64,000 bases of DNA from an uncultured Gemmatimonadota bacterium (GTDB taxonomy: Bacteria; JAAXHH01). Made by a program: the position numbers and the translations under genes. The DNA lies in assembly GCA_951812955.1 (NCBI GenBank), contig OX638340.1:480001-544000 (forward strand), read 5' to 3'. Positions 11,604 to 53,490 of the stretch are shown here, in pieces (position 1 is the stretch's first letter; every line of letters begins with the position of its first letter). A model generated the notes under the pieces. That model made no database searches. It was not told where the DNA came from and saw only the letters and a list, made by a program, of their open reading frames with translations.

Positions 11604-11611
11604 TAGCAGCG

Positions 11612-12004
11612 TTACCTGCCGTAGTAGTTTTCCAGATAGGTAAGAATGGTTTCTTCGGTTTTCGAATCGAATTTCTTCAATCCCTTTTCCGCCTGCATCC
11701 AACGGATAGCATCAAGCCACTCCGCGCGGTTCGCCCGATAGGAACGGATGATCTGGGTAGGATGGCATTGGGCGCATTCCCTTTCCACGACGGGGTAGCC
11801 GTCGCCCATGATCAGCCGGGTCCGGTGGTTCAGTTCCAGGCCCGTTCGCGGGTCGAACATCGTTACGGGCTTGGCCGCCTCGGCCCTGGCATTGGCCTGT
11901 GCGACTTTCGATCGCTCCGCTTCGTAGTAGATCAGACCGACTACCAGGACATCCAGGATGATGACGAAGGCAAACTGGCCAAGTACGCGCAGAAACGAAT
12001 TCAT
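11612..12004 (-). CDS. Membrane-anchored monoheme cytochrome c family protein
   Basis: A 130-aa protein with an N-terminal hydrophobic helix (FAFVIILDVLVVGLIYY) and a single CxxCH heme-binding motif (CAQCH). Confidence 0.55.
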   Translation of the reverse strand: MNSFLRVLGQFAFVIILDVLVVGLIYYEAERSKVAQANARAEAAKPVTMFDPRTGLELNHRTRLIMGDGYPVVERECAQCHPTQIIRSYRANRAEWLDAIRWMQAEKGLKKFDSKTEETILTYLENYYGR

Positions 12005-27750: not shown

Positions 27751-27907
27751 TGCTGATTCTCCTTGTTGGGTTTGCGTGCGGGGAGTTTAAGGCGTTTCCT
27801 TCCCTTCGAATTTAGCAAGTCGGGCACCGGCAGGCAACACCATTTCAACGCGATGCGCAATCGGCTGGTTGGAATTCCTCACGTAGGCTGATCGCCTCAT
27901 CCAAAGA

Positions 27908-28888
27908 TCACGAACGGTACACTTCAGCCAGAAGTTCGTATGACCGCAACCGGGCTTTGAAATCATGGGTGATGGTGACGGCCATGATCTCTTCAGCGCC
28001 GAACTGGTCCGCAAGCCGGTCGATGGTGTCCCGGACCTGCTCCGGACTGCCCACGGCCGCGAGCCGGAACTTGTCGTCGAGGAATGCGCGTTCGGCTTCA
28101 CTGAACTGGTGCTTCTCGGCCTCCTCCACCGTGGGCACGACGTTGCTAGGCTTGCCCGATGCGAAACGGGCGAAGAGCAGATCGCGGCTCAGGGCGAGAC
28201 GTCGGGCTTCCGCCTCGGTGTCGGCGCAGATGACGTTGATCGCAATACAGGTCTTGGCCTGGGGCGACTGGGTGGACGGCTCGAAATATTGGCGATAGAA
28301 TTCCAGGATGCGCGGGTCGATGTTGCTGTTGATGAACAGGGCAAAATTGTAGGGGAGTCCCAGACGGGCCGCCAGCATGGCGCTATCGGGACTGGAACCG
28401 AGCATCCAGACCGGAGGCGGAGACAAGATGGGCGGTGTGACCCGCGGCTCGAAATCCTTGTCTTGCAGGATCTCCACGAGTTCAGCAACCAGATCGGGAA
28501 ACTGATCGAACCGGGGTCCGGCGCCGGGCGACAGCATCCGGGCGGTCTTCATGTCGCCGCCGGGCGCACGGCCGACCCCCAGGTCGACGCGGTCCGGGTA
28601 GAGATTCGTGAGCACGGAGAAGCTTTCGGCGACCTTGAAGGGACTGTAATAGGGCAGCATGACGCCGCCGGACCCGATCCGCATGCCTCCCGTGGCGGCT
28701 CCGATGGCCGCGAGCAACACTTCGGGCGAACTTCCGGCCAGGCAGTGGGCGTTGTGGTGCTCGGACACCCAGAAGCGCTTGTAACCCAGGCGTTCAGCCG
28801 TTCTGGCCAGGGTCAGGGTCTCCTGGAAGGCCTGCACCGCCGTGACGCCTTCCCGCACGGGGGACTGATCGAGTATGGACAGGTTCAT
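27908..28888 (-). CDS. LLM-class (luciferase-like) flavin-dependent oxidoreductase
   Basis: A 326-aa protein with an N-terminal FWVSEHH motif and the bacterial-luciferase TIM-barrel pattern. Confidence 0.8.
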   Translation of the reverse strand: MNLSILDQSPVREGVTAVQAFQETLTLARTAERLGYKRFWVSEHHNAHCLAGSSPEVLLAAIGAATGGMRIGSGGVMLPYYSPFKVAESFSVLTNLYPDRVDLGVGRAPGGDMKTARMLSPGAGPRFDQFPDLVAELVEILQDKDFEPRVTPPILSPPPVWMLGSSPDSAMLAARLGLPYNFALFINSNIDPRILEFYRQYFEPSTQSPQAKTCIAINVICADTEAEARRLALSRDLLFARFASGKPSNVVPTVEEAEKHQFSEAERAFLDDKFRLAAVGSPEQVRDTIDRLADQFGAEEIMAVTITHDFKARLRSYELLAEVYRS

Positions 28889-28948
28889 TAATCAGGATTC
28901 CTATTCGTTACCAGGTTCAATTTAAACGGTTAGGTCGGGATCGCCCGA

Positions 28949-40270: not shown

Positions 40271-41014
40271 CTACGATTTCTCTCTGTCCTGTTCGGCCCT
40301 GGCCTTTGACAGTGCCGACGCGATTATTCCCGATGGAATCGCAATGACACCTAATCCGATCATCAGGAGGATGAATGTGAAAATCCTTCCCCCTCCGGTC
40401 ACCGGATATGTATCGCCGTAACCCACGGTAGTCAATGTTACAACCGCCCACCACAGTCCATCCAGCACCGAACCGAATTTACCTGGCTGTACGGCGCTTT
40501 CAAAATACCAGATTCCCGCCGCCGCCAGGTAAATCAGTATCACGGACAGGACTGCGAACATTATGATTTCTTCCTTCACGATGACGACGGCTCGCTGTAA
40601 TCGATCTACCGCCTGGTTGTATCTGAACAGTCTGATAATCCTGAAGATACGCAATACACGAACGACGCGAAGTATTCGGCCGTCGACGTAACCAAAGCCG
40701 ATCAACATTAGGTAAAATGGCAGGATAGCTAACAGATCTATGATTCCATAGAAACTAAAAACATATTGCGTTCTGTTGTATGCAACAAAGCATCGCAAGC
40801 AGTATTCGAATGTGAATAACACGACGGTAATGGTTTCCACTAAATGGAGGAAAGACTGAGTCTGGCCGGTTATACCAGGGATTGTTCTTAACGTAAATGT
40901 GATCAGAGATAACAAGATCATGCCAAGTATGAAATCGTCAAACGTACGGCCCTGCCATGAGTCTCGACGTTCGACCACATGCCTGATTCGTTCAATGTAT
41001 GTTGTCTGGTTCAT
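40271..41014 (-). CDS. Voltage-gated potassium channel (6TM Kv-like)
   Basis: It has an S4 voltage sensor (RILRVVRVLRIFRIIRLFR), a pore helix, and the K+ selectivity filter TVGYGD. The gene is visibly lower in G+C than its surroundings. Confidence 0.85.
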   Translation of the reverse strand: MNQTTYIERIRHVVERRDSWQGRTFDDFILGMILLSLITFTLRTIPGITGQTQSFLHLVETITVVLFTFEYCLRCFVAYNRTQYVFSFYGIIDLLAILPFYLMLIGFGYVDGRILRVVRVLRIFRIIRLFRYNQAVDRLQRAVVIVKEEIIMFAVLSVILIYLAAAGIWYFESAVQPGKFGSVLDGLWWAVVTLTTVGYGDTYPVTGGGRIFTFILLMIGLGVIAIPSGIIASALSKARAEQDREKS

Positions 41015-41190: not shown

Positions 41191-44100
41191 CTAACACTCA
41201 GCCACGGCTCGTGGATTCAACCCCTCCAACAACGTGTCGATCGTCTGACTGATGGCGGTCTCAGACTGCAAGGTCTCGACCGGAATCGACACGTGCAATC
41301 CTGCCTCGATCCTGTTTCGTAACTCCACGGCCATGAGGGAATCCACGCCCAGGCTGCGCCAGGTCTGCCCGGTCTCCACGCTCCCTGGGTCCACTTCCAA
41401 GATCCGGCTGATCGCATCGGTCACGAATTCCTCGATGTAGTCGCGCATTATGTCAGGGGATAGCGCGCTCAGATCGGCTTTCGATAGGGGTGGAATCGCC
41501 CGTGTCGCCTGCGCTCCGCGAACATCCGGTGGCAGGAACCGGGCAAGAAGCGTATCTGCTTTTGGCTCAGTCGTGGGGATTACGCCGACGCGGTGGACAT
41601 CGCGACGGAGTATTCGATCAAGCAGCGCGCCTGCCTCATCGGGCGGGATCGATCGCAGGCCCTGCCGCCTCATACGATCGACGGCTCGTTCGTCGGTCAT
41701 CATGCCCGTATCTTCCCAGGGCCCCCAGTTTACTGTCGTCACCGGCAGACCCTCCTGACTCCTGAGGTCCGCCAGGCCGTCGAGAAACGCGTTCGCAGCG
41801 GCGTAGGATGCCTGTCCGGCCGTACCGAGCAGGGAGGCCACCGACGAAAAGAGGACGAAGAGGTCCAGTTCGCGGTCGCGGGTAATCGCATGCAGGTTCC
41901 ACGCGCCGACCGTCTTGGGTTCGAGTACCCGGCGGAACCTTTCCGCATTCTGGGTGAGCAAAATGCCATCGTCCAGCACGCCGGCCCCGTGGAAGACGCC
42001 CCTGACCGGTCCGTGCTCGATTTCCAGGCCTGCCAAGAGACCTTCCATCGCATCACGCTCGGTCGCATCGGCCTGAACGTACTTCACTTTGCCGTTGGGA
42101 TCACTTTCCAGTGACGTATCCACATGATGTCTTCGCCCCGTCACGACGACCAGGCCGGCTCCCCGGTCGAGTAGCCAACCCGTCAGGAAGCGGCCGATCC
42201 CACCCGCGCCGCCCGTGACGAGGTAGGTTCCGCCCGGACGAATGATCGGATCATCTTCTCCCAGGGCAACAGGGACGGACGCACCGTCGTCTACGAGCAC
42301 CAGTTTGCCCATGTGCCGCGCCTGCGACATGAACCGGAAGGCATCCCGCGCCTCGGCAAGCGGGTATGCATGGTACGGCAGGGGACGTATGCTGCCATCC
42401 GCAGCCAAGTCGGCGATTTTCTGTAGCATGGCGCCCGCACGGTCCGGCTGTTCCTCGATGAACTGTGCAAGATCGATGGGATGATAGGATTTGTTGCGGT
42501 CGAACCGGTTGAGATCGATGAGTCCATGGTTCAGCACATCGGTTTTGCCGATCTCAATGAAACGTCCGTGGGGCGCAAGTACGGCCAGAGAAGCCATCAT
42601 GGCGGGACCAGACAGTGTGTTCAGGACGATATCCATTCCCTTCCCGTCCGTCTTCTCAATGATCTCTTCTGCGAAGTCCAGGGAACGGGAATCCATCACA
42701 TGCGAAACGCCTATTTCCCGCAGAAAGGCTCGTTTTTCATCAGATCCGGCCGTGGCAAACACCTCGGCCTCTGCCTGACGGGCGAGTTGAAGAGCGGCCA
42801 GCCCCACCCCTCCTGTCGCGTTGTGTACAAGAACGCGGTCGCCGGCGGATATTCCGCCACGTACCACGAGCCCGAGGTATGCCGTCAGGAAGGCCACGGG
42901 CAGCGTAGCGGCTTCTTCGATACCCAGGCTATCCGGCTTCCGGACGACCAGGGCGGCCTTCGCGGTCACGTAACCGGCCATGGCCATCGGCACCATGCCC
43001 ATGACCAAATCACCGACTTCCACAGAGTCAGTCCGGCTTCCGCGTGCAACCACCTCGCCGACGCATTCCCAACCGAAGGAAGGTGGACGCGGCAATGAGG
43101 CTCGCAGCATGCCGAGGGCGGTAAGTACGTCCCTGAAGTTCAGCGCGGTTGCCTGCATGCGGATGACGACCTCGTCCGGTGCTGGTTCACGCTCCCGCTC
43201 CGACACAAAGTGGAGATCGTCAATCGAACCGGGCGTCGACTGTGTAAGTCTGTAACTGGTATTAAAATATGAAGATGCGGAAACACGCTTCGCTTTGGTG
43301 TTTGACAGGTCTAACGGAACGAGACGACGGGTATACAGCTCGGTCTCCCGTACCGCGATCTCGCCGGTCAGTTTGTCCGCGGCCACGATACAGGCGAGAT
43401 GTTCCAAATCGATCTCGTCGGTTCCGGCTGGAAGGTCGATCATCGCACAGTTCAACTCGGGGTGCTCCTGCGCGGCGACCCGTCCGCATCCCCAGATCGT
43501 CCCGAGTTCCGGCTTCGACCGGTCGCCATCAACCACGGACTGGGCACCCGCCGTAATCAACCTCAGGCGGTACGACAGATCGGGACTGTCCAGCACCGCC
43601 CTGACCATTTCAAAGGATTCCAGCGCGGGGCCGGTATGTCGGTTCGACCGCCTGGCGCCTTTTCCAGTCCAGATTCCCACGACGCCGACCGGTTCCCCGG
43701 ATTCGGATCTCACTGAGCCCAGTCTGCCGGCGAGGGCGTCGGCCGGGCTTGCCTTGCACTCACTGGACGCATCGATGAATTCACTCTTCCCGCCGCGTCG
43801 AGCCAGGGCATTAGCCAGGCCGGTTCCGAGTCGCGGGTCCTCCGTAATCACGTACCAGTGCGATGTTGTGCCGGGTTCCACCTGGTCTTCCGGGATTGGC
43901 ATGGCCATCCAGGCTTCCCGGTAGATTCCCTGTGGGTTATCAAGGCCATGCCGGCCTGCGCCTGTCCTGAACAGACCCCCTCCTGCCCGGAACAGGGACA
44001 CGCCTTCCAGTTGTACCACAGGAAGGCCCTTGTCATCTACGAGGTACACATCGGCCAGCAGCCCACCGTCACTTGATTTCTCCCTCAGTCTGGCGTATGC

Positions 44101-47100
44101 AACCAGGACATCATGCTCGTCCGGAAGCTTCTGCAGCACAACGGTTTCCACGCTGACGGGCAGATGCGGATCGTCTTCAGGAACGAGCATCAGCAGGACC
44201 TGCAGACCGGCATCCAGAACACCGGGGTGCAGGCGGTAGGGATTCTGATCATCATCTCGTACGGCCAGGACGGCCAGGACTTCCCGTTCGGAGTACACAA
44301 GCTCGTCAATCTGGCGGAAGGACGGGCCGTATTGAAACCCCAGAGCTGCTGCGCGTTCGTAGAATCGACCGCTCGCGACCCGGCGGTCGCAACGGGATCT
44401 GACGGCTTCCAGTTCTACGCGTTCTGTTATCTCATCTACGCGGGTTCGTTCGGCTAGCATGTTTGACAGCCAGCTCGAACCAGTCTCCTGGGATTCCGGC
44501 CTGGAGGAAAGCGTATACCGGTTCTGCCTGCGTACAACCTGGACGAGATGTGCGCCGATATCTGGCAATAACAGGGGGTTCAGGAGTTCAAGGTCCCGAA
44601 ATGCGACTGGAGCATCCTCCTCGTCGAGGGTCTCGAAGAGCATTTCTATCTGCCCTGCGAGCGGCATGATCGATCGGTCCAGTACGGTGTGATCCGCCAG
44701 CATAGGATGGGAGTCCAGGCTAATCGGCCGTTCCCACACGAAGGTTTCGGGGTCCACGGACGATTCGATGCCGGTACCGATCAATGGGTGCGGGTACTGG
44801 CTTCGCGGGCCACCCGGTTGATTCGTCATCCCGTCCAACCAGAAACGTTCCTTCTGCCAGGGATAGGTCGGCAACGGAACAGGAGTTCTCGGTGGATCCA
44901 CCAGGTGTTGCCATCGTATATCGTGGCCGTGGACGTAACATTTCGCCATGGCTTCGAGCAGGACGTCCCAGGTTCCGCGGTCTCGTCGTAGCGAGGCAAC
45001 CGCGTGCCCCGTCCAATTCAGATGAGCCAGGTTTTCATATATGATCGTCGAAAGCACGGGATGAGGGCCGATCTGGACGAACAGCGCCTCTCCGCCATCT
45101 GGAATCGCTTCGAATGAACGGCTGAACAGGACGGGACTCCGGATATTTCGCCACCAGTGATCCGCGTCGAGGTCCATTCCTTCAACCCGCGTACCCGTGA
45201 CCGTCGAGAACAGAGGTACGTGGGATTTCGAGGGAGACAGTCCATTCAGGGACGCCAGGAAATCGTCGCGGATCCCGTCCATTTGCCTGCTGTGATAGGC
45301 GATATCCGTATGTAGTTTGCGGCAGAAAATCCGTCGTCCATCCAACTCCGCCTGTAACCGGTCGATAGCCGCGGTCTCCCCGGATATGGTCACGGAAACC
45401 GGACTGTTGACCGCAGCAACGGACAGGCTGTCTCCGAAGGGTTCTATGGCCTCTTCCGCCTCGTCCGGCGACAGGCCCACCGCAAGCATCTCGCCCCGTC
45501 CCTGCCACGCCTTCTGCAGCCTGCTGCGCTGGTATATGATGCGAACGCCCTCTTCCAGGGAAAGGGCGCCCGCGACACAGGCTCCGGTGATTTCCCCGAC
45601 GCTGTGGCCAATGACGAACCGCGGCTCAATACCAAAGGACCGCCATAGGGCCGCCAGGGCCCACTGCAGCGCCATGTTGGCGGGCTGAGCGATCTCGACG
45701 CCGGTGATGCGCTCCCCGGCTGCACCGCGCCACATCTCATCCTTAATGGAATTTCCCGCAGCTGCCGAGTACAGGCGGTCGAACTCGTCCAGGGCTTCGC
45801 TGAACGGGGGCGCCGAATTATAGAGCGCCCGCCCCATACCGAACCACTGCGGCCCCATGCCGGTGAAGACGAAGACGACAGGTGTGGGATGCGATCCGAC
45901 ACGTGCCGTCTCGAACCGATCTGGGATGCCGCCTGCACGAAACGTCTCAAGGCCCTGCGCCGCCCCCCCGGCCTCCTCGAACACCAGGCCAAGGCGGTGG
46001 TCCAGATGGGACCTGTACAGGGCGAGCGCGGCCGCCAGATCGTCGGGTGGCGTATCGGGTTGGCTTCGGAGCAGAGATACTGTATCCGACGCCTTTTGCT
46101 TCAGCGCGGCGGCGTTATGGGCGGACAGGACCAGGAGCCGGGTAGCGCGCTGATCGTCCGTACGGCACGGGTCGGACGTGCCGGGTGAACCGCCCGATTC
46201 GACTTCCGCCGGGCCAGGCGGGGATCCCAGCACCACGTGGGCGTTGGCACCGCCGAATCCGAAGGAATTAACCCCGGCGTAACAGGATACGGGGATGTTT
46301 TCCGGTTCGGTGACCACCTTTAGCCCGAGCGCTTCAAAGGGTATATCGGGGTTTGGCTGATCGAAATGCAGGGAGGGCGGCAGGACGCCATGTTTCAGGG
46401 ACAGCGCTGTTTTGATGAGTCCGGCGACGCCGGCCGCCGCCTCGGCATGGCCGATATTGGTCTTCACCGACCCGATCAGGCAACCGGTGGATCCCGTGGC
46501 ACGGCCGATGGCCATGGCTTCCACGGGGTCGCCAGTGGGCGTTCCCGTACCGTGAGCTTCTACGAAGGCCAGGCGTTGCGCGTCCACGCCACCGGCCCGG
46601 GCGGCCGACTCGATGACGGTTTGCTGAGCGTTCTGGTCAGGTACGGTAAGCCCGCGCCCTTCCTGGCCACGCCCGTCCTGGTTTATCGCGGAGCCGAGAA
46701 TGACCGCGTAGATCGGATCGTCGTCCTCCACCGCGTCGGACAGGCGTTTCAGCACGACGATTCCCGCGCCGTCGCTCCGTCCGTACCCGCTCGCCCCCTG
46801 GTCGAAGGCCCTGCAGCGCCCATCCGGCGACAACATTTGCGCCTGTTGAAAGCCGCGCGTCGTCTGCGGAGTCAGGAGGAGATTCGCGCCACCGGCAAGT
46901 GCGGCCGAACAGATACCGGCCTGTATATCCCTGCAGGCCAGGTGAACGGCGGTCAGCGAAGAAGAACAGGCCGTATCCACCGCGATACTCGGGCCCTTCA
47001 GATCCAGGAAGTAGGAGATCCGGTTCGCCGCGATACTCAGCGTGCCACCCGTATTGGTGTGCATGCCGACGGCTGACGGCGCCGCGTACCGCTGCAGGTC

Positions 47101-47478
47101 CCAGTATTCGTCCAGGAAGATCCCCATGTACACGCCAACGGGCCGGCCTTCAAGCTTCGCCGGCGGAATCTGCGCGTCTTCCAGCGCTTCCCAGGCAAGT
47201 TCGAGCAGGACGCGCTGCTGGGGATCGATGTGGCGGGCTTCCCGTGGCGAGATATTGAAAAACGCTGCGTCGAATCGGTCGATCTCGTCGACGAACCCGC
47301 CATGGGCGGGATAGTCTTTATGGCCCGTCCACGGTTCCCACAGCGATTTGCGCTCATCCGGCACGGCGCGTATGGCGTCACCGCCGTTCAGGACGAATTC
47401 CCAGAAAGATCGGGGCGAAGATATCTCCCCGGGAAAACGGCAGGCGATACCTGTTATGGCAATGGGTTCACCGGACAT
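41191..47478 (-). CDS. Type I polyketide synthase, single fully reducing module KS-AT-DH-ER-KR-ACP (FAS-like)
   Basis: A 2095-aa protein. The KS active site is DTACSSSL. The AT motif is GHSVGE. The DH motif is HxxxDxxxxP (HPMLADHTVLDRSIMP). The ER NADPH motif is HNATGGVG. The KR motif is TGGAGGIG. The ACP motif is LGVDSLMAVELRN. Confidence 0.9.
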   Translation of the reverse strand: MSGEPIAITGIACRFPGEISSPRSFWEFVLNGGDAIRAVPDERKSLWEPWTGHKDYPAHGGFVDEIDRFDAAFFNISPREARHIDPQQRVLLELAWEALEDAQIPPAKLEGRPVGVYMGIFLDEYWDLQRYAAPSAVGMHTNTGGTLSIAANRISYFLDLKGPSIAVDTACSSSLTAVHLACRDIQAGICSAALAGGANLLLTPQTTRGFQQAQMLSPDGRCRAFDQGASGYGRSDGAGIVVLKRLSDAVEDDDPIYAVILGSAINQDGRGQEGRGLTVPDQNAQQTVIESAARAGGVDAQRLAFVEAHGTGTPTGDPVEAMAIGRATGSTGCLIGSVKTNIGHAEAAAGVAGLIKTALSLKHGVLPPSLHFDQPNPDIPFEALGLKVVTEPENIPVSCYAGVNSFGFGGANAHVVLGSPPGPAEVESGGSPGTSDPCRTDDQRATRLLVLSAHNAAALKQKASDTVSLLRSQPDTPPDDLAAALALYRSHLDHRLGLVFEEAGGAAQGLETFRAGGIPDRFETARVGSHPTPVVFVFTGMGPQWFGMGRALYNSAPPFSEALDEFDRLYSAAAGNSIKDEMWRGAAGERITGVEIAQPANMALQWALAALWRSFGIEPRFVIGHSVGEITGACVAGALSLEEGVRIIYQRSRLQKAWQGRGEMLAVGLSPDEAEEAIEPFGDSLSVAAVNSPVSVTISGETAAIDRLQAELDGRRIFCRKLHTDIAYHSRQMDGIRDDFLASLNGLSPSKSHVPLFSTVTGTRVEGMDLDADHWWRNIRSPVLFSRSFEAIPDGGEALFVQIGPHPVLSTIIYENLAHLNWTGHAVASLRRDRGTWDVLLEAMAKCYVHGHDIRWQHLVDPPRTPVPLPTYPWQKERFWLDGMTNQPGGPRSQYPHPLIGTGIESSVDPETFVWERPISLDSHPMLADHTVLDRSIMPLAGQIEMLFETLDEEDAPVAFRDLELLNPLLLPDIGAHLVQVVRRQNRYTLSSRPESQETGSSWLSNMLAERTRVDEITERVELEAVRSRCDRRVASGRFYERAAALGFQYGPSFRQIDELVYSEREVLAVLAVRDDDQNPYRLHPGVLDAGLQVLLMLVPEDDPHLPVSVETVVLQKLPDEHDVLVAYARLREKSSDGGLLADVYLVDDKGLPVVQLEGVSLFRAGGGLFRTGAGRHGLDNPQGIYREAWMAMPIPEDQVEPGTTSHWYVITEDPRLGTGLANALARRGGKSEFIDASSECKASPADALAGRLGSVRSESGEPVGVVGIWTGKGARRSNRHTGPALESFEMVRAVLDSPDLSYRLRLITAGAQSVVDGDRSKPELGTIWGCGRVAAQEHPELNCAMIDLPAGTDEIDLEHLACIVAADKLTGEIAVRETELYTRRLVPLDLSNTKAKRVSASSYFNTSYRLTQSTPGSIDDLHFVSEREREPAPDEVVIRMQATALNFRDVLTALGMLRASLPRPPSFGWECVGEVVARGSRTDSVEVGDLVMGMVPMAMAGYVTAKAALVVRKPDSLGIEEAATLPVAFLTAYLGLVVRGGISAGDRVLVHNATGGVGLAALQLARQAEAEVFATAGSDEKRAFLREIGVSHVMDSRSLDFAEEIIEKTDGKGMDIVLNTLSGPAMMASLAVLAPHGRFIEIGKTDVLNHGLIDLNRFDRNKSYHPIDLAQFIEEQPDRAGAMLQKIADLAADGSIRPLPYHAYPLAEARDAFRFMSQARHMGKLVLVDDGASVPVALGEDDPIIRPGGTYLVTGGAGGIGRFLTGWLLDRGAGLVVVTGRRHHVDTSLESDPNGKVKYVQADATERDAMEGLLAGLEIEHGPVRGVFHGAGVLDDGILLTQNAERFRRVLEPKTVGAWNLHAITRDRELDLFVLFSSVASLLGTAGQASYAAANAFLDGLADLRSQEGLPVTTVNWGPWEDTGMMTDERAVDRMRRQGLRSIPPDEAGALLDRILRRDVHRVGVIPTTEPKADTLLARFLPPDVRGAQATRAIPPLSKADLSALSPDIMRDYIEEFVTDAISRILEVDPGSVETGQTWRSLGVDSLMAVELRNRIEAGLHVSIPVETLQSETAISQTIDTLLEGLNPRAVAEC

Positions 47479-48295
47479 GACTCAGGGGTCTTCGAAAGGT
47501 CCATTCGGCGTTTCCGTACCGGGTTCTGACCAGCTCCTCGGTCGCGTGCCGTTCTTCATCGTTCAGCACGTCCCTTCGTCCTTCGAGGTTGAAATGTTCC
47601 ATGAACGACCGGGAAAGGCCGTCGGCCCATTCCTCGAAAGTCGGTAGACCGGAAGTCAATTCAGAAACGGTTATGGTCCGCTGATCCAGCAACCGGGCGA
47701 TGGTCTCCCGGCGTTGCTGGTCCTGGGAAGGTATCAGCAAAGGCAGTCTTTTGTGTCCCGGTCCCAGCAGGACGGATCCGTGGTGCAATACCCGTCCACC
47801 CGACCGGCGCTGGGCGCTTCCAGCCAGTTTTCTGCCTCGCGCTGTAATCTCGTAACGTCCCGTGGCCGTGAAGCATACGTCGCTATTGCCTCCAATGCCA
47901 CAGCTTGCTTCCAGCGCCGGATCTGCCGGGATTCCGAAGTGCCGTAACGTCCTGGCCAGCGCTTCCCCGGCCCCGCGGAACATAGCGCCGGACAGGGTAT
48001 TCATTGCGGGATGGGATTCCGGAAACACCAGGCTGTACGTCAGTTCCTGGTCATGCAGCACCGTGCGCCCACCGGTGATCCGGCGGACCAGGTCGATGCC
48101 ATACCGGTCGCATCGGCCGGGGTCGACCTCGTCTTCCACGTCTTGTCCATATCCGACGGACACAGCCGGAGGATGCCATGTGTAGATGCGCAGCGTCATC
48201 ATCTTCGTGTCCCGCCGGCACGCGCCGAACAGCGCTTCATCGACGGCCATGTTGTAAGCGGCGGAACACCCGGGGGAGGTCAGTATGCGGATCAT
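47468..48295 (-). CDS. Lipoate/octanoyl-protein ligase family protein (BPL/LplA/LipB catalytic domain only)
   Basis: A 275-aa protein with the BPL_LPL catalytic domain pattern (RRITGGRTVLHD ... KLAGSAQRR). Its start overlaps rnc's stop by 4 nt and its stop overlaps the PKS start by 11 nt. Confidence 0.65.
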   Translation of the reverse strand: MIRILTSPGCSAAYNMAVDEALFGACRRDTKMMTLRIYTWHPPAVSVGYGQDVEDEVDPGRCDRYGIDLVRRITGGRTVLHDQELTYSLVFPESHPAMNTLSGAMFRGAGEALARTLRHFGIPADPALEASCGIGGNSDVCFTATGRYEITARGRKLAGSAQRRSGGRVLHHGSVLLGPGHKRLPLLIPSQDQQRRETIARLLDQRTITVSELTSGLPTFEEWADGLSRSFMEHFNLEGRRDVLNDEERHATEELVRTRYGNAEWTFRRPLSHVR

Positions 48296-49119
48296 GACCC
48301 TTCGCTGTCCCGGGCGGACTGCAACCGCTCTACTGCCTGCCGCGCCGCGTCCTGCTCCGCGTTCTTCTTGCTGGTTCCGGTGCCTTTGCTGACGGCGTTT
48401 CCGGCTACGAAGACCTCGATTGTAAAGACTTTCTCATGGTCGGGGCCGACGGCGGAATCGATGCGGTATTCCGGCTGCCCGATGCCTTCGCCCTGCGTAA
48501 ATTCCAGCAGCGCGCTCTTGTAGTTGCGCGAGTCATCGTCATCGGTGGGACGTTCATCGTTCAGTTCCTGCAGCAGGGTTCGATGCAGGAAGCGCCTGAC
48601 CGGCTGCAGCCCGCCGTCCAGGTATATGGCGCCGATGATGGATTCGTAGGCGTCAGACAGGATCGAGTGGCGAAAACGGCCGCCTGAACGCGCTTCGCTG
48701 GAACTCAGCAGCACGAAGCGCCCGAGTTTCATTTCCCGGGCCTGCCGGGCGAGCGCCTTGCGGTTAACCAGCGTGGAACGGAGCTGCGTCAACTGCCCCT
48801 CGCGGCACCTCGGGTACTTATCGTATATGAACTCGCCCACGACGAGATCCAGCACCGCGTCGCCCAGGAACTCCAGCCGTTCGTTGGAGTAAACTCCGGA
48901 CTGCTCCCGGGAATACACGTAGGAACGGTGTTTGAGGGCAGTTATCAGGTAATCGGGGTTCTTGAAACGGTAGTTGATATACTTCTGTACCTGGCGTGCG
49001 TTTTCCCGTTCGGCTGCGGTCCGGTTCACGGCGTTGCGGGATGCGCCGCGTTTCAGGCGGAAAAACAGGGTCGCGGCCACGCGCCGTAGTTTTTGCAGGA
49101 TAGGATGCCGTTTCGACAC
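48292..49119 (-). CDS. rnc: Ribonuclease III
   Basis: It has the RNase III signature ERLEFLGDAVL and a C-terminal dsRBD (GPDHEKVFTIEVFVAG...G.G.SKK.AEQ.AA). Confidence 0.9.
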   Translation of the reverse strand: MSKRHPILQKLRRVAATLFFRLKRGASRNAVNRTAAERENARQVQKYINYRFKNPDYLITALKHRSYVYSREQSGVYSNERLEFLGDAVLDLVVGEFIYDKYPRCREGQLTQLRSTLVNRKALARQAREMKLGRFVLLSSSEARSGGRFRHSILSDAYESIIGAIYLDGGLQPVRRFLHRTLLQELNDERPTDDDDSRNYKSALLEFTQGEGIGQPEYRIDSAVGPDHEKVFTIEVFVAGNAVSKGTGTSKKNAEQDAARQAVERLQSARDSEGS

Positions 49120-49158: not shown

Positions 49159-50445
49159 TTACGCCGTGTACTTCTTTACCACGAGTGTTACGTTATGCCC
49201 ACCGAATCCGAATGAATTGGTCAAGGCCGCCCGTACTTCCCGTTCCCTGCCGGTGTTGGGAACGTAGTCCAGGTCGCAATCGGGATCGGGTACCTCGTAG
49301 TTGATGGTAGGATGGACGAAATCGCGGGCGACGGACAGTGTGGTCGCGATGAACTCTACTCCTCCTGAAGCTCCGAGCAGATGACCGACAAGTGACTTCG
49401 TGGAGCTGATGGCGAGACTTTTCGCGTGTTCACCAAAGACCTTTTTGATGGCCAGGGTTTCAATGCGATCGTTAAAGGGAGTGGACGTTCCGTGGGCGTT
49501 GATATAATCGATCCCGTCCGCGTCCAGCCCGGCGTTCTGCAATGCCAGTTTCATGGATCGCATAGCGCCTTCGCCGGATTCATGGGGCTGTGTGATATGA
49601 AAGGCATCCGCTGTCGCGGCGTAACCTGCCAGTTCGGCGTAGACAGTCGCATTGCGCCGCCGCGCGTGCGACAGGGTCTCGAGGACGACTATGCCCGCGC
49701 CTTCACCCAGGACGAATCCGTCCCTTTCGGCGTCGAAGGGCCGGCTGGCCCGCTCCGGTTCATCGTTGCGGAGTGAAAGGGCCCGCATATTGCTGAACCC
49801 GGCCACGGCCATGGGCGAAATGCTGGCTTCCGTGCCGCCGGTGATCATTACGTCGGCGTCCCCGTGCTGCAGGATCCGGAAGGCGTCGCCAATTCCGTGG
49901 GCGCCGCTGGAACAGGCCGATACCGTGGTGTAATTGGGTCCTTTCAAACCGTGTATCATCGAGATATAGCCGGGGGCCATGTCCGCGATCATCATCGGGA
50001 TGAAAAAGGGGCTCACGCGCCCCGGACCCTTGTTCACCAGGTTCGAATGCTGGTTCTCGAAGGTCCAAATGCCTCCGACGCCCGTACCCATGACCACCCC
50101 GATGCGTTCCCGGTCCTCTACATCGAGGTCCAACCCGGAGTCGTCGATCGCCATCTGCGCCGCAATGACCGCGTACTGGACGTTTTCGTCCATGCGCCGC
50201 ACTTCCTTCCGGTCGATGTAATCTGCCGCGTTGAAATCCTTCAACTCGGCGGCGATTTTCGCCGGAAAGGCGTCCACATCGAACTTGGTTATGGGCCCTA
50301 TGCCGCTTTGGCCGCTGCAAAGGGCATTCCAATAGGTATCGAGCCTGAGACCCACGGGGCTCAGGACGCCCATACCGGTGACGACTACGCGCTCGGCCAC
50401 GCCGATCCTCCCGAATTCAACCGGTCGCATTTCCAGGGACTGCAT
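49159..50445 (-). CDS. fabF: 3-oxoacyl-ACP synthase II
   Basis: It has the KAS II active-site region SACSSG and the C-terminal His-His and Lys of KS enzymes. The length is about 415 aa. The true start may be a few codons downstream of the listed ATG. Confidence 0.9.
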   Translation of the reverse strand: MQSLEMRPVEFGRIGVAERVVVTGMGVLSPVGLRLDTYWNALCSGQSGIGPITKFDVDAFPAKIAAELKDFNAADYIDRKEVRRMDENVQYAVIAAQMAIDDSGLDLDVEDRERIGVVMGTGVGGIWTFENQHSNLVNKGPGRVSPFFIPMMIADMAPGYISMIHGLKGPNYTTVSACSSGAHGIGDAFRILQHGDADVMITGGTEASISPMAVAGFSNMRALSLRNDEPERASRPFDAERDGFVLGEGAGIVVLETLSHARRRNATVYAELAGYAATADAFHITQPHESGEGAMRSMKLALQNAGLDADGIDYINAHGTSTPFNDRIETLAIKKVFGEHAKSLAISSTKSLVGHLLGASGGVEFIATTLSVARDFVHPTINYEVPDPDCDLDYVPNTGREREVRAALTNSFGFGGHNVTLVVKKYTA

Positions 50446-50473: not shown

Positions 50474-50704
50474 TCAGCCGTCTACATTGGCCTGGAGATA
50501 CTTGATCGCGTCACTAACCGTGACGATCTTTTCGGCGTCCTCGTCGGGAATCTCGAGATCGAATTCCTCCTCGAGCGCCATGACGAGTTCGACCGTATCG
50601 AGCGAGTCGGCGCCCAGGTCGTCGGTAAACGAGGCATTGTCGGTAACCTGGTCACCGTCAACGCCAAGTTGCTCGGCGATGATCTCCTTTACGCGATCTT
50701 CCAT
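50474..50704 (-). CDS. acpP: Acyl carrier protein
   Basis: [15 protein letters not shown]...[20 protein letters not shown] carries the DSLD phosphopantetheine site. The start is at the ATG at 50702-50704, preceded by AGGAGG. Confidence 0.9.
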
Positions 50705-50789
50705 CTTCTTTCCTCCTGTCCGTATGAATTGTTGGCTTTCTTGACTACATGTTGAAATCAAATTCCCGCTTCAGTTGCGAATGATCTAT

Positions 50790-50887: not shown

Positions 50888-51631
50888 CTACATCCCCATG
50901 CCGCCGTCGACACGCATTACCTGCCCCGTGATGAAGGCGGCGTCGTCGGACGCCAGGAACGTCGCGATGCCGGCCACGTCGTCGGGTTGCCCGGCCCGGG
51001 ATAACGGTGTGGCGTCCAGGAACGCGGCCCGCACCGTTTCGGGAAGCGACTCCGTCATGGCTGTTTCGATAAACCCCGGTGCGATCGCATTGACCGTGAT
51101 CCCCCGGCTTCCGACCTCCTTCGCCACCGACTTGGTGAATCCGATGATACCAGCCTTGGAGGCAGAATAGTTGGCCTGTCCCGCGTTACCCGTGAGGCCG
51201 ACGATCGAGGTCATATTGATGATCCTGCCGCTCCGCTGTCTCATCATTTGCCGGATGACCGCCTGGGTGCAAATGAACACGCCGCCCAGGTTGACGTGCA
51301 TGACTTCGTCCCAGTCGGCCTGTTTCATACGCATCAGCAGCGTGTCCCGGACCGTGGCCGCGTTGTTGACCAGTACGTCGATGGAACCGTAAGTCTCGAC
51401 CACGCCGTCGATCAGGTCTTTCACGCTGTCCCGGTCGTCTATGCGAACAGCCAGGCCTCGGGCTTCGCCACCTTGTTGCTTCAGCGCTTCGGCGGCTTCC
51501 TCGGCCTTGGTCCCGTCGCGGCTCGTAATGATTACCCGGGCGCCTTCTGCGGCGAACCGTTCGGCGACGGCGGAACCGATCCCCTGCGCTCCGCCCGTAA
51601 CGACGGCAACTTTGCCACTTACGCCGCGCAA
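50888..51631 (-). CDS. fabG: 3-oxoacyl-ACP reductase
   Basis: It has TGGAQGIG, NNAA, and a catalytic S...Y..SK. The length is 247 aa. Confidence 0.9.
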   Translation of the reverse strand: MRGVSGKVAVVTGGAQGIGSAVAERFAAEGARVIITSRDGTKAEEAAEALKQQGGEARGLAVRIDDRDSVKDLIDGVVETYGSIDVLVNNAATVRDTLLMRMKQADWDEVMHVNLGGVFICTQAVIRQMMRQRSGRIINMTSIVGLTGNAGQANYSASKAGIIGFTKSVAKEVGSRGITVNAIAPGFIETAMTESLPETVRAAFLDATPLSRAGQPDDVAGIATFLASDDAAFITGQVMRVDGGMGM

Positions 51632-51673: not shown

Positions 51674-52633
51674 TTACCGTTCTACCGCGAGCTGACCGAG
51701 CGTTTCTACTGCTGAAGACACGTCCTCTAGCTTGTCCGCATTCAGGATATTGACGCCTCGGTGCATTCTTTTCATGAGACCCGATAGTACGTTGCCCGGT
51801 CCGGCTTCCACCACCGTGTCCACCCCCCGGTCGGTCAGGGTCTGCATCGATTCCGCCCAGCGAACCGGGCTGGTCAATTGCTCGATCAACAGGCGGCGAA
51901 TTTCATCGGGCTCCGACACGATCCGGGCAGTCACGTTCGCAACCACAGGCGTTTTCGCTCGGCAGATGGAGGCCTTTTCGATCGCCTCCGCAAGATCCCG
52001 CCGCGCGTATTCCATGAGTTCGGAATGAAAAGCACCGCTGACCTTGAGCGCAACGACCTTTTTGGCCCCCGCCGCGCGAGCGTTTTCCATGGCCCGTTCC
52101 ACGGCCGGTACGGCTCCGGCGATGACCGTCTGCTTCGGCGAGTTGTAGTTGGCGGATTGAACGGGTTCGCCTTCCTCACTCGCAGACCGGCAGACTTCAT
52201 CGACTTCCAGCGGTGAAAGACCGATCACGGCCGCCATGGTGCCCGGCCGTTTTTGCCCGGCCTCGTGCATCAATCTACTGCGCAGGTGAATCAGGCGCAC
52301 CGATTCCTCGAATGAGAGTGAACCCGCGGCGACCAGCGCCGCGTATTCTCCCACGCTGTGTCCGGCGACGTAATCCGGATGGATCCCGTGCTCGTTCAGC
52401 TGGGACGCCACCGCCACGCTGTGCACCAGAATGGCCAGTTGCGTGTAATTCGTTTGCTTCAGGGTTTCCGCAGGGCCGTCAAAGGAGACTCCGGCGATAT
52501 CGGCGCCGGTGATCTCACGGGCCTGCCGGTACAGCGTCTGAATCCGAGGATACCGGTCGTGCAGGTCCCGTCCCATGCCCACGTACTGGGAAGCCTGCCC
52601 CGGAAACAAGAATGCGATCCTGGCTTGGGTCAT
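51674..52633 (-). CDS. fabD: Malonyl-CoA:ACP transacylase
   Basis: It starts FLFPGQASQYVGMG and has the active-site motif GHSVGE. Confidence 0.9.
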   Translation of the reverse strand: MTQARIAFLFPGQASQYVGMGRDLHDRYPRIQTLYRQAREITGADIAGVSFDGPAETLKQTNYTQLAILVHSVAVASQLNEHGIHPDYVAGHSVGEYAALVAAGSLSFEESVRLIHLRSRLMHEAGQKRPGTMAAVIGLSPLEVDEVCRSASEEGEPVQSANYNSPKQTVIAGAVPAVERAMENARAAGAKKVVALKVSGAFHSELMEYARRDLAEAIEKASICRAKTPVVANVTARIVSEPDEIRRLLIEQLTSPVRWAESMQTLTDRGVDTVVEAGPGNVLSGLMKRMHRGVNILNADKLEDVSSAVETLGQLAVER

Positions 52634-52651
52634 GGATTGGCGGCGCCGAAC

Positions 52652-52834
52652 CTATATCGCTTCGACTTCCTGCACTTCCCTTCCCTGATAATATCCGCAA
52701 TGAGGACAAACACGGTGCGCGCGTTTCTTCTCTCCGCAATGCGAGCATTCCACCAGTGCCGGCATCGACAGTACCCAATGCGTACGTCGTTTACGACTCC
52801 GTGTCCGTGACTGGCGTCGCTTGGGCAGAGCCAT
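52652..52834 (-). CDS. rpmF: 50S ribosomal protein L32
   Basis: [20 protein letters not shown]...[20 protein letters not shown] is the L32 N-terminus plus a zinc ribbon. The start at 52832-52834 is preceded by AGGAGG. Confidence 0.85.
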
Positions 52835-52836
52835 TT

Positions 52837-53358
52837 CTATTCCTCCTTCAGCAACGTTTTCAGTGTGTGCCAGCGCGGGTCCTCTTGCCGCGTACCACAA
52901 TCGCAGGTGCCCTCGTTGAGGTTTCTGCCGCATTCGGCACAGAGGCCCTTGCAGTCATCGCTGCACAGGGGTTTCATCGGTAAGTTCAGGTTTACAAGTT
53001 CCGCGATGCGCCGGCGTAGATCAATCGTCTTCGCGCCGTAGTCCAGTATTTCCACATCGTCGGATTCGGTCAACTCCTCGCCCTCGGGTATGGCGCGGTC
53101 GGTCTTCTCGTAATAGGTCGCGATTTCGCCGCTGATATGTTCCTTCATGTCTTCAAGGCACCTGCCGCAGGAGAAGGCCAGATCGACACCTATGTCCGCC
53201 TGCAGCACCAGCGAATTCTCGGATACCGTGAGCGTGCCATCCACCTTAACGGGTGACGCGAATCGGCAGTCTTCGTCCGGTAGAAAGTCGGCGGCGGGCA
53301 TGTCTTCTATATGGATGGGATGTAGACCTTCGGACAGATGCTCGATCGCAATTTGCAT
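52837..53358 (-). CDS. yceD: YceD/DUF177 family protein
   Basis: A 173-aa acidic protein with a C-terminal CxxC...CxxC ([19 protein letters not shown]), immediately upstream of rpmF. Confidence 0.8.
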
Positions 53359-53460: not shown

Positions 53461-53490
53461 ATAATACGAGGGTTACCCCAGTCATGTCAA
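53461..53490 (-). promoter_or_regulatory. Candidate sigma-70-type promoter for the yceD-rpmF-fab operon
   Basis: On the minus strand there is TTGACA (53490..53485), an 18-nt spacer, then TATTAT (53466..53461), in the 148-bp gap between sucD and yceD. A near-inverted repeat, GGCTTTCCG-n9-CGGAAGCC, lies just downstream of the -10. Confidence 0.4.

What the first reader, a model, noticed from the sequence alone, without database searches (positions are those of the whole stretch)
41191..49119. FAS-like fully reducing type I PKS translationally coupled to an LplA/LipB-family ligase and rnc at the end of the FAS II operon
The gene order on the minus strand is yceD, rpmF, fabD, fabG, acpP, fabF, rnc. 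This continues, without a break, into a 275-aa BPL/LPL-catalytic-domain protein and a 2095-aa single-module PKS with all six domains (KS-AT-DH-ER-KR-ACP).

The ligase start overlaps the rnc stop by 4 nt. The ligase stop overlaps the PKS start by 11 nt. That indicates one transcript and coupled translation.

A lipoate or octanoyl transferase-like enzyme normally takes acyl chains from ACP and places them on protein lysines. Its obligate coupling to a FAS-like megasynthase suggests a pathway where a PKS-made acyl chain is handed to a protein or another acceptor. It could also be an unusual lipid, such as long-chain or branched fatty acyl products, made alongside housekeeping FAS II. I know of no described system with this exact gene coupling.
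Basis: partly seen in the sequence, partly recalled or inferred. Interest (0 to 1): 0.65.

Follow-up and report, generated by a model that had tools for sequence, protein, structure and literature searches.

The report
LipM gene coupled to FAS-like PKS
In one marine and sponge-associated lineage of Gemmatimonadota, a giant fatty-acid-synthase-like polyketide synthase gene sits directly behind a LipM-type lipoate-pathway octanoyltransferase gene at the end of the housekeeping fatty-acid operon; the layout is real and ancient, but the evidence favours co-expression over a new acyl hand-off pathway.

Summary
On the minus strand, yceD-rpmF-fabD-fabG-acpP-fabF-rnc runs into a 275-aa LplA-fold protein and a 2095-aa KS-AT-DH-ER-KR-ACP synthase, with 4-nt and 11-nt overlaps.

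The "ligase" is a LipM-type octanoyltransferase. It is single-domain and carries the Cys/Lys pair that aligns with positions 150/165 of the Bacillus yqhM (LipM) gene. Relatives in other phyla sit beside lipA or gcvH.

Its orthologue lies directly after rnc at the end of the FAS II operon in seven Gemmatimonadota and Latescibacterota genomes that have no PKS there.

Ligase and housekeeping trees agree, and PKS-bearing loci form one clade. That fits one ancient gain next to an ancestral rnc-lipM pair.

The reverse link is strict. All 17 distinct PKS orthologue loci (KS at least 57% identical) have the ligase immediately upstream, 14 of them with the same 11-nt overlap.

The PKS is colinear with mycobacterial mycocerosic acid synthase. 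It has malonyl-type AT motifs and no methyltransferase, loader or thioesterase, so a straight saturated acyl chain is predicted.

Most likely these are two independent known enzymes that are co-expressed. A catalytic link is not excluded (about 12%).

The parts
53461..53490 (-). sigma-70-like promoter candidate upstream of yceD (TTGACA-18-TATTAT, 11 of 12)
   Evidence: It is the only strong match on the minus strand between 41 and 54 kb. This is a consensus match only, and the total count of sites does not exceed the shuffles.
52837..53358 (-). yceD (DUF177), first gene of the string
   Evidence: Pfam PF02620, 101.5 bits. Syntenic in all related loci.
52652..52834 (-). rpmF (ribosomal protein L32), 60 aa
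   Evidence: The translation [20 protein letters not shown].... The orthologue in L001 is PF01783.
51674..52633 (-). fabD (malonyl-CoA:ACP transacylase)
   Evidence: PF00698, 142 bits.
50888..51631 (-). fabG (3-oxoacyl-ACP reductase)
   Evidence: PF13561 and PF00106.
50474..50707 (-). acpP (acyl carrier protein), 77 aa from the ATG
   Evidence: PF00550. Translation with a DSLD motif.
49159..50445 (-). fabF (KAS II). The ORF gives 428 aa; orthologues are 413 aa, so the true start is probably about 45 nt downstream.
   Evidence: PF00109 and PF02801.
48292..49119 (-). rnc (RNase III). Its stop overlaps the ligase start by 4 nt (ATGA, 48292-48295).
   Evidence: TIGR02191, 241 bits against a cutoff of 166. 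The junction was read.
47468..48295 (-). LipM-type octanoyltransferase: a single LplA-fold catalytic domain of 275 aa with catalytic Cys141 and Lys156
   Evidence: PF21948 over residues 12-231. It scores below every LplA-type ligase cutoff in NCBIfam. C141 and K156 are invariant and align with positions 150 and 165 of the Bacillus yqhM-locus gene. Orthologues sit after rnc with or without a PKS.
47468..47478 (-). 11-nt overlap of the ligase stop (TGA) and the PKS start (ATG)
   Evidence: Read. The same 11 nt are found in 19 of 22 rows (14 of 17 distinct loci), down to 45% ligase identity. The rest have 8 or 14 nt.
41191..47478 (-). Single-module, fully reducing type I PKS (MAS-like or FAS-like), 2095 aa. 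No loader, methyltransferase or thioesterase.
46219..47469 (-). KS domain (aa 4-420), with C171, H309 and H344
   Evidence: invariant in 10 orthologues.
44932..45876 (-). AT domain (aa 535-849), with GHSVG and IAYH motifs. Malonyl-type is predicted.
   Evidence: The alignment to DEBS ATs (GHSQG, YASH) is.
43987..44790 (-). DH domain (aa 897-1164), with H930 and D1089
42295..43242 (-). ER domain (aa 1413-1728), with HNATGGVG
41689..42231 (-). KR domain (aa 1750-1930), with GGAGGIG, LDD and Y1892
41215..41445 (-). ACP domain (aa 2012-2088), with the phosphopantetheine attachment site S2047. The protein ends 48 residues later.

Best explanation
Two known kinds of enzyme share one operon for historical and regulatory reasons. 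They are probably not one catalytic pathway.

(1) Ligase (inferred from sequence, shown by comparative data). The 275-aa protein is a LipM-type octanoyl-ACP:protein N-octanoyltransferase. It takes octanoyl from acyl-ACP onto its active-site Cys141 and passes it to the lipoyl-lysine of GcvH or E2 proteins. Its gene has sat just after fabF-rnc, next to the source of its substrate, since before Gemmatimonadota and Latescibacterota diverged.

(2) Gain of the PKS (shown by phylogeny). In the ancestor of one clade found in marine, sponge and other aquatic metagenome samples, a single-module, fully reducing, MAS-like type I PKS was inserted directly 3' of lipM. Its ATG lies inside the last codons of lipM. 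Both genes have been inherited vertically since then, and the junction has been frozen.

(3) PKS chemistry (inferred). The PKS acts iteratively on malonyl-CoA and builds a straight, saturated acyl chain on its own ACP. With no loader and no thioesterase, it is probably primed and unloaded by enzymes encoded elsewhere. The product most likely goes into a cell-envelope lipid, which would explain co-transcription with FAS II.

(4) Meaning of the overlap (inferred). It ensures that the PKS is translated with the fatty-acid operon. It does not imply that the octanoyltransferase handles the PKS product.
For: Identity of the ligase:
- It is a single LplA-fold domain with no accessory domain.
- Cys141 and Lys156 are invariant in 28 sequences. 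They align with positions 150 and 165 of the Bacillus spizizenii gene that lies beside gcvT-gcvPA-gcvPB, the yqhM (LipM) locus.
- Thermoplasma LplA has Ser at the Cys position.
- Homologues at 35-41% identity sit next to lipA (8 loci) or gcvH (3 loci) in other phyla.
- JGI names such homologues lipoyl(octanoyl) transferase.
- Published survey: 60% of Gemmatimonadota and 73% of Latescibacterota genomes carry LipM with LipA (PMC10332631, S4 Table).

Ancestral position:
- fabD-fabG-acpP-fabF-rnc-ligase occurs without a PKS in L003, L013, L033, L052, L065, L070 and L072.
- The ligase tree and the FabF+Rnc+FabG tree agree, and the PKS loci form one clade.
- There is no excess ligase divergence between the PKS and non-PKS groups (ratio 1.32). 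Only 11 clade-specific substitutions were found, none in the core motifs.

The PKS:
- It is colinear with M. tuberculosis MAS (9d2z, 952 bits, residues 5-2084 against 7-2101) and with the Pks2 model.
- All catalytic motifs are invariant in orthologues down to 43% identity.
- The AT has GHSVG and IAYH, against GHSQG and YASH in methylmalonyl-specific ATs.
- The GC content of the PKS region equals that of its surroundings.
- Downstream neighbours differ between loci, and none is a PKS tailoring gene.
Against: - The PKS orthogroup was never seen without the ligase (17 of 17 distinct loci).
- The 11-nt overlap is kept in 14 of 17 distinct loci, while the rnc-ligase spacing drifts from -4 to +202 nt. 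This is more constraint than simple adjacency needs.
- The PKS has no loading domain and no release domain. A relative, L096, does carry a TE, so some trans-acting acyltransferase is required.
- LipB is present in 83% of Gemmatimonadota genomes. The LipM-type enzyme may therefore not be the essential octanoyltransferase and could be free to take another role.
- Within the PKS clade the ligase diverges faster relative to housekeeping genes (ratio 1.88 against 1.37).
- The PKS clade also lacks the fabH or plsX gene that relatives carry between rpmF and fabD.
- No product, transcript or activity data exist.
Confidence: 0.55

Rival explanations
1. Catalytic partnership. The LipM-like enzyme serves the PKS in one of two ways. 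It could load a medium-chain starter (octanoyl from FAS II AcpP) onto the loader-less PKS. Or it could take the finished chain from the TE-less PKS ACP through its Cys thioester and pass it to a protein lysine or another amine.
For: - The PKS is always immediately downstream of the ligase, and the overlap is frozen at 11 nt in 14 of 17 distinct loci.
- The PKS lacks both a loader and a TE.
- LipM chemistry is acyl-ACP to a Cys thioester to an amine (established knowledge: Christensen and Cronan 2010).
- LipB is common in the phylum, so LipM may be spare.
- The ligase evolves faster in the PKS clade.
Against: - The same ligase gene sits in the same place in seven PKS-free genomes.
- There is no burst of change on the branch where the PKS arrived, and no change in the motifs around Cys141 and Lys156.
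- MAS, Pks2, SupA and SwfA also lack a TE and have no such partner.
- No fusion of an LplA domain with a PKS appears among the 120 best PKS homologues.
- No acceptor protein gene is nearby.
Confidence: 0.12
2. Hybrid initiation system. The PKS makes a short or medium acyl chain (for example C4-C8). This chain both primes FabF-driven FAS II elongation, replacing the FabH missing from the operon, and supplies octanoyl for LipM.
For: - fabH lies between rpmF and fabD in L013, L033, L065, L070 and L072. It is absent from every PKS-bearing locus and from the 64-kb window.
- lipM lies between FAS II and the PKS.
Against: - The rpmF-fabD slot is labile anyway. L003 has plsX there and no fabH, so relocation elsewhere in the genome is the simpler reading.
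- LipM works beside FAS II without any PKS in relatives.
- Chain length cannot be predicted from the sequence.
- Whole genomes were not available to check for fabH elsewhere.
Confidence: 0.06
3. The PKS is a specialised-metabolite synthase, for example a sponge-symbiosis factor. Its position after lipM is an accident of insertion with no link to lipid metabolism.
For: - The closest genome record is a MAG labelled APA_bin_41, and GCA_009840045.1 also carries the arrangement.
- Sponge-specific KS clades map largely to Gemmatimonadetes (PMC10308959).
- Monomodular Sup and Swf PKSs are typical of sponge symbionts (PMC3908369).
Against: - The orthogroup is also present in assemblies that are not from sponges, including a TARA Oceans scaffold and other JGI environmental metagenome contigs.
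- It has been kept, with every catalytic motif, over a divergence at which FabF is 75% and the ligase 45% identical. No losses were seen.
- It has no tailoring or export genes and is embedded in a core operon.
Confidence: 0.15
4. The 275-aa protein is an ATP-dependent lipoate-protein ligase (the large subunit of a split LplA-LplB) used for lipoate salvage, not an octanoyltransferase.
For: The best solved-structure match is the Thermoplasma acidophilum LplA large subunit (E 3.7e-22). The best NCBIfam hit is LplA_large.
Against: - The NCBIfam scores are far below the cutoffs (96 against 480, and 85 against 280).
- No lplB-like gene is adjacent.
- The Cys that forms the acyl-enzyme in LipM and LipL is invariant here and is Ser in Thermoplasma LplA.
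- The gene sits next to acpP and fabF, the source of acyl-ACP.
Confidence: 0.06

Closest known systems
Bacillus subtilis LipM (YqhM), octanoyl-ACP:GcvH octanoyltransferase
   Same: - A single LplA-fold domain of about 276 aa with no accessory domain.
- A Cys-Lys pair 15 residues apart (C150 and K165 in LipM; C141 and K156 here), in the shared motif (V/A)CF...YE(I/L)...G(R/K)K(L/V)AGSAQ.
- 34% identity over residues 3-269 to the B. spizizenii orthologue.
   Different: - Gene context: it follows fabF-rnc, not the gcv genes.
- It comes from a phylum where LipB usually co-occurs.
- LipL, a paralogue with the same Cys, was not compared directly.
- Activity is untested.
Mycobacterium tuberculosis mycocerosic acid synthase (MAS) and Pks2 (MAS-like iterative PKSs)
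   Same: - A KS-AT-DH-ER-KR-ACP single module of about 2100 aa, colinear end to end.
- No loading module and no thioesterase.
   Different: - The score is half the Pks2 equivalog cutoff (1156 against 2400).
- The AT motifs are malonyl-type (GHSVG, IAYH), not methylmalonyl-type, so no methyl branches are predicted.
- No FadD-type activating gene or Pap-type acyltransferase gene is nearby.
- It lies inside the FAS II operon.
SwfA and SupA, monomodular PKS/FAS of sponge symbionts (PMC3908369)
   Same: - A single fully reducing module with an unknown lipid-like product.
- Occurrence in sponge-associated bacteria.
- SwfA has the same domain order.
   Different: - SwfA has DPQ(I/V)R, HATGT, IAFH and GHSSGE motifs and is followed by swfB and swfC. 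Here the motifs are DPQQR, HGTGT, IAYH and GHSVG, and there is no swfB or swfC.
- SupA-type enzymes carry a methyltransferase domain, as in L105. This PKS has none.
FAS II-rnc gene linkage, as in B. subtilis fapR-plsX-fabD-fabG-acpA-rnc (recalled from my own knowledge, not tested here)
   Same: rnc follows the acyl carrier protein and fab genes in one string.
   Different: Here fabF lies between acpP and rnc, and lipM and the PKS follow rnc.

Membership tests
LipM-type octanoyltransferase | A single LplA/LipB-fold catalytic domain with no C-terminal accessory (LplB-like) domain | tested here: met
   PF21948 covers residues 12-231 of 275. The alignment to the 262-aa Thermoplasma LplA large subunit spans residues 4-267.
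LipM-type octanoyltransferase | An acyl-enzyme Cys and a conserved Lys 15 residues downstream (C150 and K165 of B. subtilis LipM; residue roles recalled from Christensen and Cronan 2010) | tested here: met
   C141 and K156 are invariant in 28 sequences, including three Bacillales homologues. Positions 150 and 165 were computed on the B. spizizenii protein. The same Cys number is reported for LipL, so this feature does not separate LipM from LipL.
LipM-type octanoyltransferase | Closer to characterised LipM than to ATP-dependent LplA ligases | tested here: met
   The Bacillus hit lies at the gcvT-gcvPA-gcvPB-yqhL-yqhM locus (34-37% identity). E. coli LplA scores E 2e-10 and Thermoplasma LplA E 3.7e-22. 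LplA models score below their cutoffs.
LipM-type octanoyltransferase | Distinct from the amidotransferase LipL | not tested
   No verified LipL sequence was available. Indirect support only: JGI names homologues lipoyl(octanoyl) transferase, and the gene is next to acpP and fabF.
LipM-type octanoyltransferase | Family members are genomically linked to lipoate assembly genes | tested here: met
   lipA is adjacent in L018, L032, L046, L049, L059, L075, L079 and L083. gcvH is adjacent in L069, L080 and L085. Neither gene is in this window.
LipM-type octanoyltransferase | Transfers octanoyl from octanoyl-ACP to GcvH without ATP | not testable with these tools
   This needs enzyme assays or complementation.
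LplA lipoate-protein ligase (NCBIfam TIGR00545, NF053750) | A score above the curated cutoff | tested here: not met
   85.3 against 280, and 96.1 against 480 bits.
MAS-like iterative PKS (Mas, Pks2) | A single KS-AT-DH-ER-KR-ACP module, colinear, with no TE | tested here: met
   (9d2z, residues 5-2084 against 7-2101).
MAS-like iterative PKS (Mas, Pks2) | Equivalog-level similarity (NF041183 cutoff 2400) | tested here: not met
   1155.6 bits.
MAS-like iterative PKS (Mas, Pks2) | A methylmalonyl-specific AT (GHSQG, YASH) | tested here: not met
   GHSVG and IAYH, invariant in 10 orthologues. Aligned against DEBS ATs.
MAS-like iterative PKS (Mas, Pks2) | Iterative elongation of a fatty-acyl primer | not testable with these tools
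   Inferred only, from the single module and the missing loader.
SwfA (sponge widespread FAS) | DPQ(I/V)R, HATGT, IAFH, GHSSGE and QCALVEL motifs, with swfB downstream | tested here: not met
   The motifs here are DPQQR, HGTGT, IAYH and GHSVGE. The downstream genes are an ion channel and an amidohydrolase. The criteria come from PMC3908369.
SupA (sponge ubiquitous PKS) | A C-methyltransferase domain between DH and ER | tested here: not met
   No methyltransferase hit. Compare L105, which has one.

The most novel reading that the evidence does not exclude
In this Gemmatimonadota clade, FAS II, the LipM-like acyltransferase and the TE-less, loader-less PKS form one integrated type I/type II system. 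The LipM-like enzyme moves a medium-chain acyl group between AcpP and the PKS. It acts either as a primer loader or as the release enzyme that N-acylates a protein or amine. Alternatively, the PKS supplies the short acyl-ACP that both LipM and FabF use, in place of the FabH missing from the operon.
Probability: 0.12. Interest if true: 0.75.

Novelty: new member of a known kind. Interest (0 to 1): 0.35.

Why it matters
- An uncharacterised, strictly conserved FAS-like megasynthase is wired into the core fatty-acid operon of a widespread marine and sponge-associated Gemmatimonadota clade. It probably makes a lineage-specific envelope lipid, which would be a possible biomarker and a target for lipidomics of uncultured bacteria.
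- The case is also a useful caution. Overlapping reading frames and perfect one-way co-occurrence look like a new pathway. Comparative genomics shows that the "ligase" was already there, doing a known job, before the PKS arrived.
- If the minority reading is right, this would be the first lipoate-family acyltransferase recruited to a polyketide or fatty-acid assembly line.

Tried and rejected
- SwfA or SupA membership: rejected on motifs, missing methyltransferase and neighbouring genes.
- Recent horizontal insertion of the PKS: rejected. The GC content matches the surroundings, and the PKS clade mirrors the housekeeping tree over deep divergence.
- plsX loss as a correlate of PKS gain: my first reading was wrong. 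Only L003 has plsX in the slot. The other PKS-free loci have fabH.
- Other lipoate genes in the window: none. tblastn found no lipA, lipB or gcvH, and Pfam annotation of about 40 of the 48 likely ORFs found no lipoate-pathway gene.
- The source record of the identical PKS protein P0121: not on record, and the cluster look-up gave no accession.
- Per-genome lipoate tables of PMC10332631: these genomes are not listed in the stored supplements.
- Literature searches for a ligase-PKS coupling, for a Gemmatimonadetes KS-AT-DH-ER-KR-ACP synthase, and for a lipM-fabF-rnc operon: nothing found.
- Terminator and promoter scan: the counts do not exceed the shuffles, so only the single 11-of-12 promoter-like site is mentioned.
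- Not run: structure prediction of the ligase, which would add little beyond Pfam and the PDB alignments. Also not run: a third large protein search for FabH or LipB, because the top-120 listing could not reach the PKS-clade genomes.


Full report
OBSERVATION

The ORF list shows three ORFs on the minus strand:
- a 2095-aa ORF at 41191-47478;
- a 275-aa ORF at 47468-48295;
- a 275-aa ORF at 48292-49119.

Pfam assigns the first to a complete single PKS module. Its domains, in residues, are KS 4-373, AT 535-849, DH 897-1164, ER 1434-1728, KR 1750-1923 and ACP 2018-2075. The second is a lipoyl protein ligase A/B catalytic domain (PF21948, residues 12-231). The third is RNase III, which passes the TIGR02191 cutoff. 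Upstream lie fabF, acpP, fabG and fabD, then rpmF and yceD.

I read both junctions directly. rnc ends and the ligase starts in tcATGAtc, a 4-nt overlap. The ligase ends and the PKS starts in cATGtccggTGA, an 11-nt overlap.

The best promoter-like site on this strand (TTGACA-18-TATTAT) lies just upstream of yceD at 53490-53461. That scan is only a consensus match. The window holds no lipA, lipB or gcvH.

ORGANISM

The best ligase homologues carry Gemmatimonadetes/Gemmatimonadota names. A genome record 99% identical over the ligase is "Gemmatimonadetes bacterium isolate APA_bin_41" (L006). The PKS is 100% identical to a protein found on a 3.8-Mb contig.

WHAT THE LIGASE IS

- It is a single-domain protein. 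It scores far below the curated cutoffs of all LplA-type ligase models (96 against 480, and 85 against 280 bits).
- Cys141 and Lys156 are invariant in an alignment of ten homologues down to 42% identity and in a 28-sequence alignment.
- In that 28-sequence alignment, Cys141 and Lys156 fall in the same columns as positions 150 and 165 of the Bacillus spizizenii protein. That protein is encoded beside ORFs with the sizes and order of gcvT, gcvPA, gcvPB and yqhL, which is the yqhM (LipM) locus.
- From established knowledge (Christensen and Cronan 2010), C150 of LipM carries the octanoyl thioester. The same residue number is reported as essential in the paralogue LipL. The Cys therefore marks a transferase, not a ligase, but it does not separate LipM from LipL.
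- Thermoplasma LplA, the best solved-structure match, has Ser at that position.
- Homologues at 35-41% identity in Desulfobacterales, Bacillales, Halanaerobiaceae and others lie next to lipA. In Methylomirabilota and one Latescibacterota genome they lie next to gcvH.
- A published census found LipM with LipA in 60% of Gemmatimonadota and 73% of Latescibacterota genomes. It found LipB with LipA in 83% and 32% respectively (PMC10332631, S4 Table).

I conclude that the protein is a LipM-type octanoyltransferase. The distinction from LipL was not tested directly.

IS THE LIGASE TIED TO THE PKS?

I scanned one genome per species with a ligase alignment and mapped the window's proteins onto the 80 loci returned, plus five fetched earlier.

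- Seven loci carry fabD-fabG-acpP-fabF-rnc-ligase with 6.8-10 kb of downstream sequence and no PKS. They are L003, L052 and L065 (labelled Gemmatimonadota) and L013, L033, L070 and L072 (labelled Latescibacterota). One search gives the gene list of L003.
- Nine distinct loci carry the PKS directly after the ligase.

A neighbour-joining tree of FabF+Rnc+FabG and a tree of the ligase have the same shape. In both, the PKS-bearing loci form one clade nested among PKS-free relatives. The simplest history is an ancestral rnc-lipM pair followed by one gain of the PKS.

IS THE PKS TIED TO THE LIGASE?

Yes, without exception in the sample.

- The PKS search shows a distinct orthogroup of 2068-2263-aa single-module proteins, down to 43% identity. 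Below that come only multimodular myxobacterial, mycobacterial and other PKSs at 32-38%.
- The gene neighbourhoods of three divergent members (48%, 43% and 55% identical) all read rnc-ligase-PKS.
- I ran a metagenome scan with an orthogroup-specific KS stretch and mapped the loci. Every locus with KS identity of 57% or more has the ligase directly upstream. Every locus at 55% or less is a different PKS with no ligase.
- Across 22 rows (16 distinct loci in that table; the P0223 contig makes 17), the ligase-stop/PKS-start overlap is 11 nt in 19 rows (14 of 17 distinct loci). It is 8 or 14 nt in the rest. The rnc-ligase spacing ranges from -4 to +202 nt.

The junction has therefore been frozen since the clade's ancestor. 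Part of this is mechanical. Two reading frames constrain the same 11 bases, and the conserved C-terminal His-Val of the ligase is the PKS start codon read in another frame.

DID THE LIGASE CHANGE WHEN THE PKS ARRIVED?

- Only 11 positions are fixed in the PKS clade and rare outside it. None lies in the RRxTGG, CF or GxKxxGSAQ motifs.
- Ligase divergence relative to housekeeping divergence is not raised between the two groups (ratio 1.32). It is higher within the PKS clade (1.88 against 1.37). At matched housekeeping identity of 0.69 and 0.63, ligase identity is 0.48 and 0.50.

This pattern looks more like a somewhat relaxed or faster-evolving gene than a one-off change of function. The pairs are not independent, so the signal is weak.

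THE PKS

- It is colinear, end to end, with M. tuberculosis mycocerosic acid synthase (9d2z, 952 bits) and with the Pks2 model at half its cutoff.
- All catalytic residues are invariant in ten orthologues.
- The AT motifs are GHSVG and IAYH. Aligned methylmalonyl-specific DEBS ATs have GHSQG and YASH. SwfA's IAFH was read as malonyl-specific by its authors.
- I therefore predict malonyl extender units and a straight, saturated chain. This is an inference.
- There is no methyltransferase, no loading domain and no thioesterase. Related monomodular enzymes in metagenomes do carry a methyltransferase (L105, Sup-like) or a thioesterase (L096).
- It is not SwfA. The DPQQR and HGTGT motifs are retained, and there is no swfB or swfC.
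- The genes downstream of the PKS differ between loci, and none is a tailoring gene.

INTERPRETATION

The most likely reading (about 0.55) is that a housekeeping LipM-type octanoyltransferase and a later-acquired FAS-like PKS share the fatty-acid operon because both belong to acyl-chain metabolism. The overlap would then serve co-expression.

What keeps a catalytic link alive (about 0.12, plus 0.06 for a FabH-replacing hybrid):
- the strict one-way co-occurrence;
- the frozen junction;
- the lack of loader and release domains;
- the frequent presence of LipB in the phylum;
- the empty rpmF-fabD slot in the PKS clade, discussed below.

That slot holds fabH in five PKS-free loci and plsX in one. 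Because it differs even among PKS-free genomes, relocation is the simpler explanation.

LITERATURE

Full-text searches found no description of a lipoate-family transferase coupled to a PKS, of this PKS orthogroup, or of a lipM-fabF-rnc operon. A KS survey noted that a sponge-specific KS clade maps largely to Gemmatimonadetes (PMC10308959). The library does not cover subscription journals.

VERDICT

Both proteins are new members of known kinds, in an unreported but probably non-mechanistic arrangement. Interest is moderate to low (0.35). The main open question is what the PKS makes.

Noticed in passing
window 52634-52651 (rpmF-fabD gap); L013 4877-5881; L072 4744-5739; L003 4408-5451: The slot between rpmF and fabD holds fabH in the PKS-free loci L013, L033, L065, L070 and L072, and plsX in L003. 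It is empty in every PKS-bearing locus. Neither gene is found anywhere in the 64-kb window.
   Followed up: partly
window 40271-41014 (-): A 247-aa voltage-gated ion-channel-like gene (Ion_trans, Ion_trans_2) sits between the PKS and the divergent Amidohydro_2 gene, in a local GC dip (0.543 against about 0.60). It is absent at this position in L001, L086 and L087, so it looks like a recent insertion.
   Followed up: partly
PMC10332631, S4 Table (not a window feature): In Gemmatimonadota, LipA+LipB is found in 82.7% of genomes and LipA+LipM in 60.3%. At least about 43% therefore carry both octanoyltransferases, although the paper calls such co-occurrence very rare overall. The role of the second enzyme is unexplained.
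   Followed up: no
L105 9671-17263; L096 9638-16675: Other monomodular, fully reducing PKSs came up in the metagenome scan. One is a 2530-aa KS-AT-DH-MT-ER-KR-ACP (Sup-like). The other is a 2345-aa KS-AT-DH-ER-KR-ACP-TE. Neither has a ligase upstream.
   Followed up: partly
ligase residues 26-27 (window about 48215-48220); P0020, P0036, L009: Some orthologues carry a variable Arg/Asp-rich low-complexity insertion of 10-25 residues (RRDA..., RRDVCRRDAGRTDAG...) after residue 26 of the ligase. The window protein has none.
   Followed up: no
L018, L032, L046, L049, L059, L075, L079, L083 (lipA); L069, L080, L085 (gcvH): LipM-like homologues of the window ligase lie directly beside lipA or gcvH in several other phyla. 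In L085 (Latescibacterota) the ligase is beside gcvH and not beside the FAS II genes.
   Followed up: partly
window 10584-11702 (-) and 17859-19640 (-): Two sizeable ORFs (372 and 593 aa, with high GC3) have no Pfam match at E 1e-5.
   Followed up: no
window 24707-30931 (-): A run of catabolic-looking genes (DMFA2_C formamidase-like, PhyH dioxygenase, luciferase-like monooxygenase, DUF6785/DUF6784 membrane protein) lies next to a Peripla_BP_2/ABC/DUF1854 transporter set. The transporter set, together with a neighbouring luciferase-like monooxygenase, PhyH or DUF6785/DUF6784 gene, recurs downstream of the PKS in L086 and L087.
   Followed up: no
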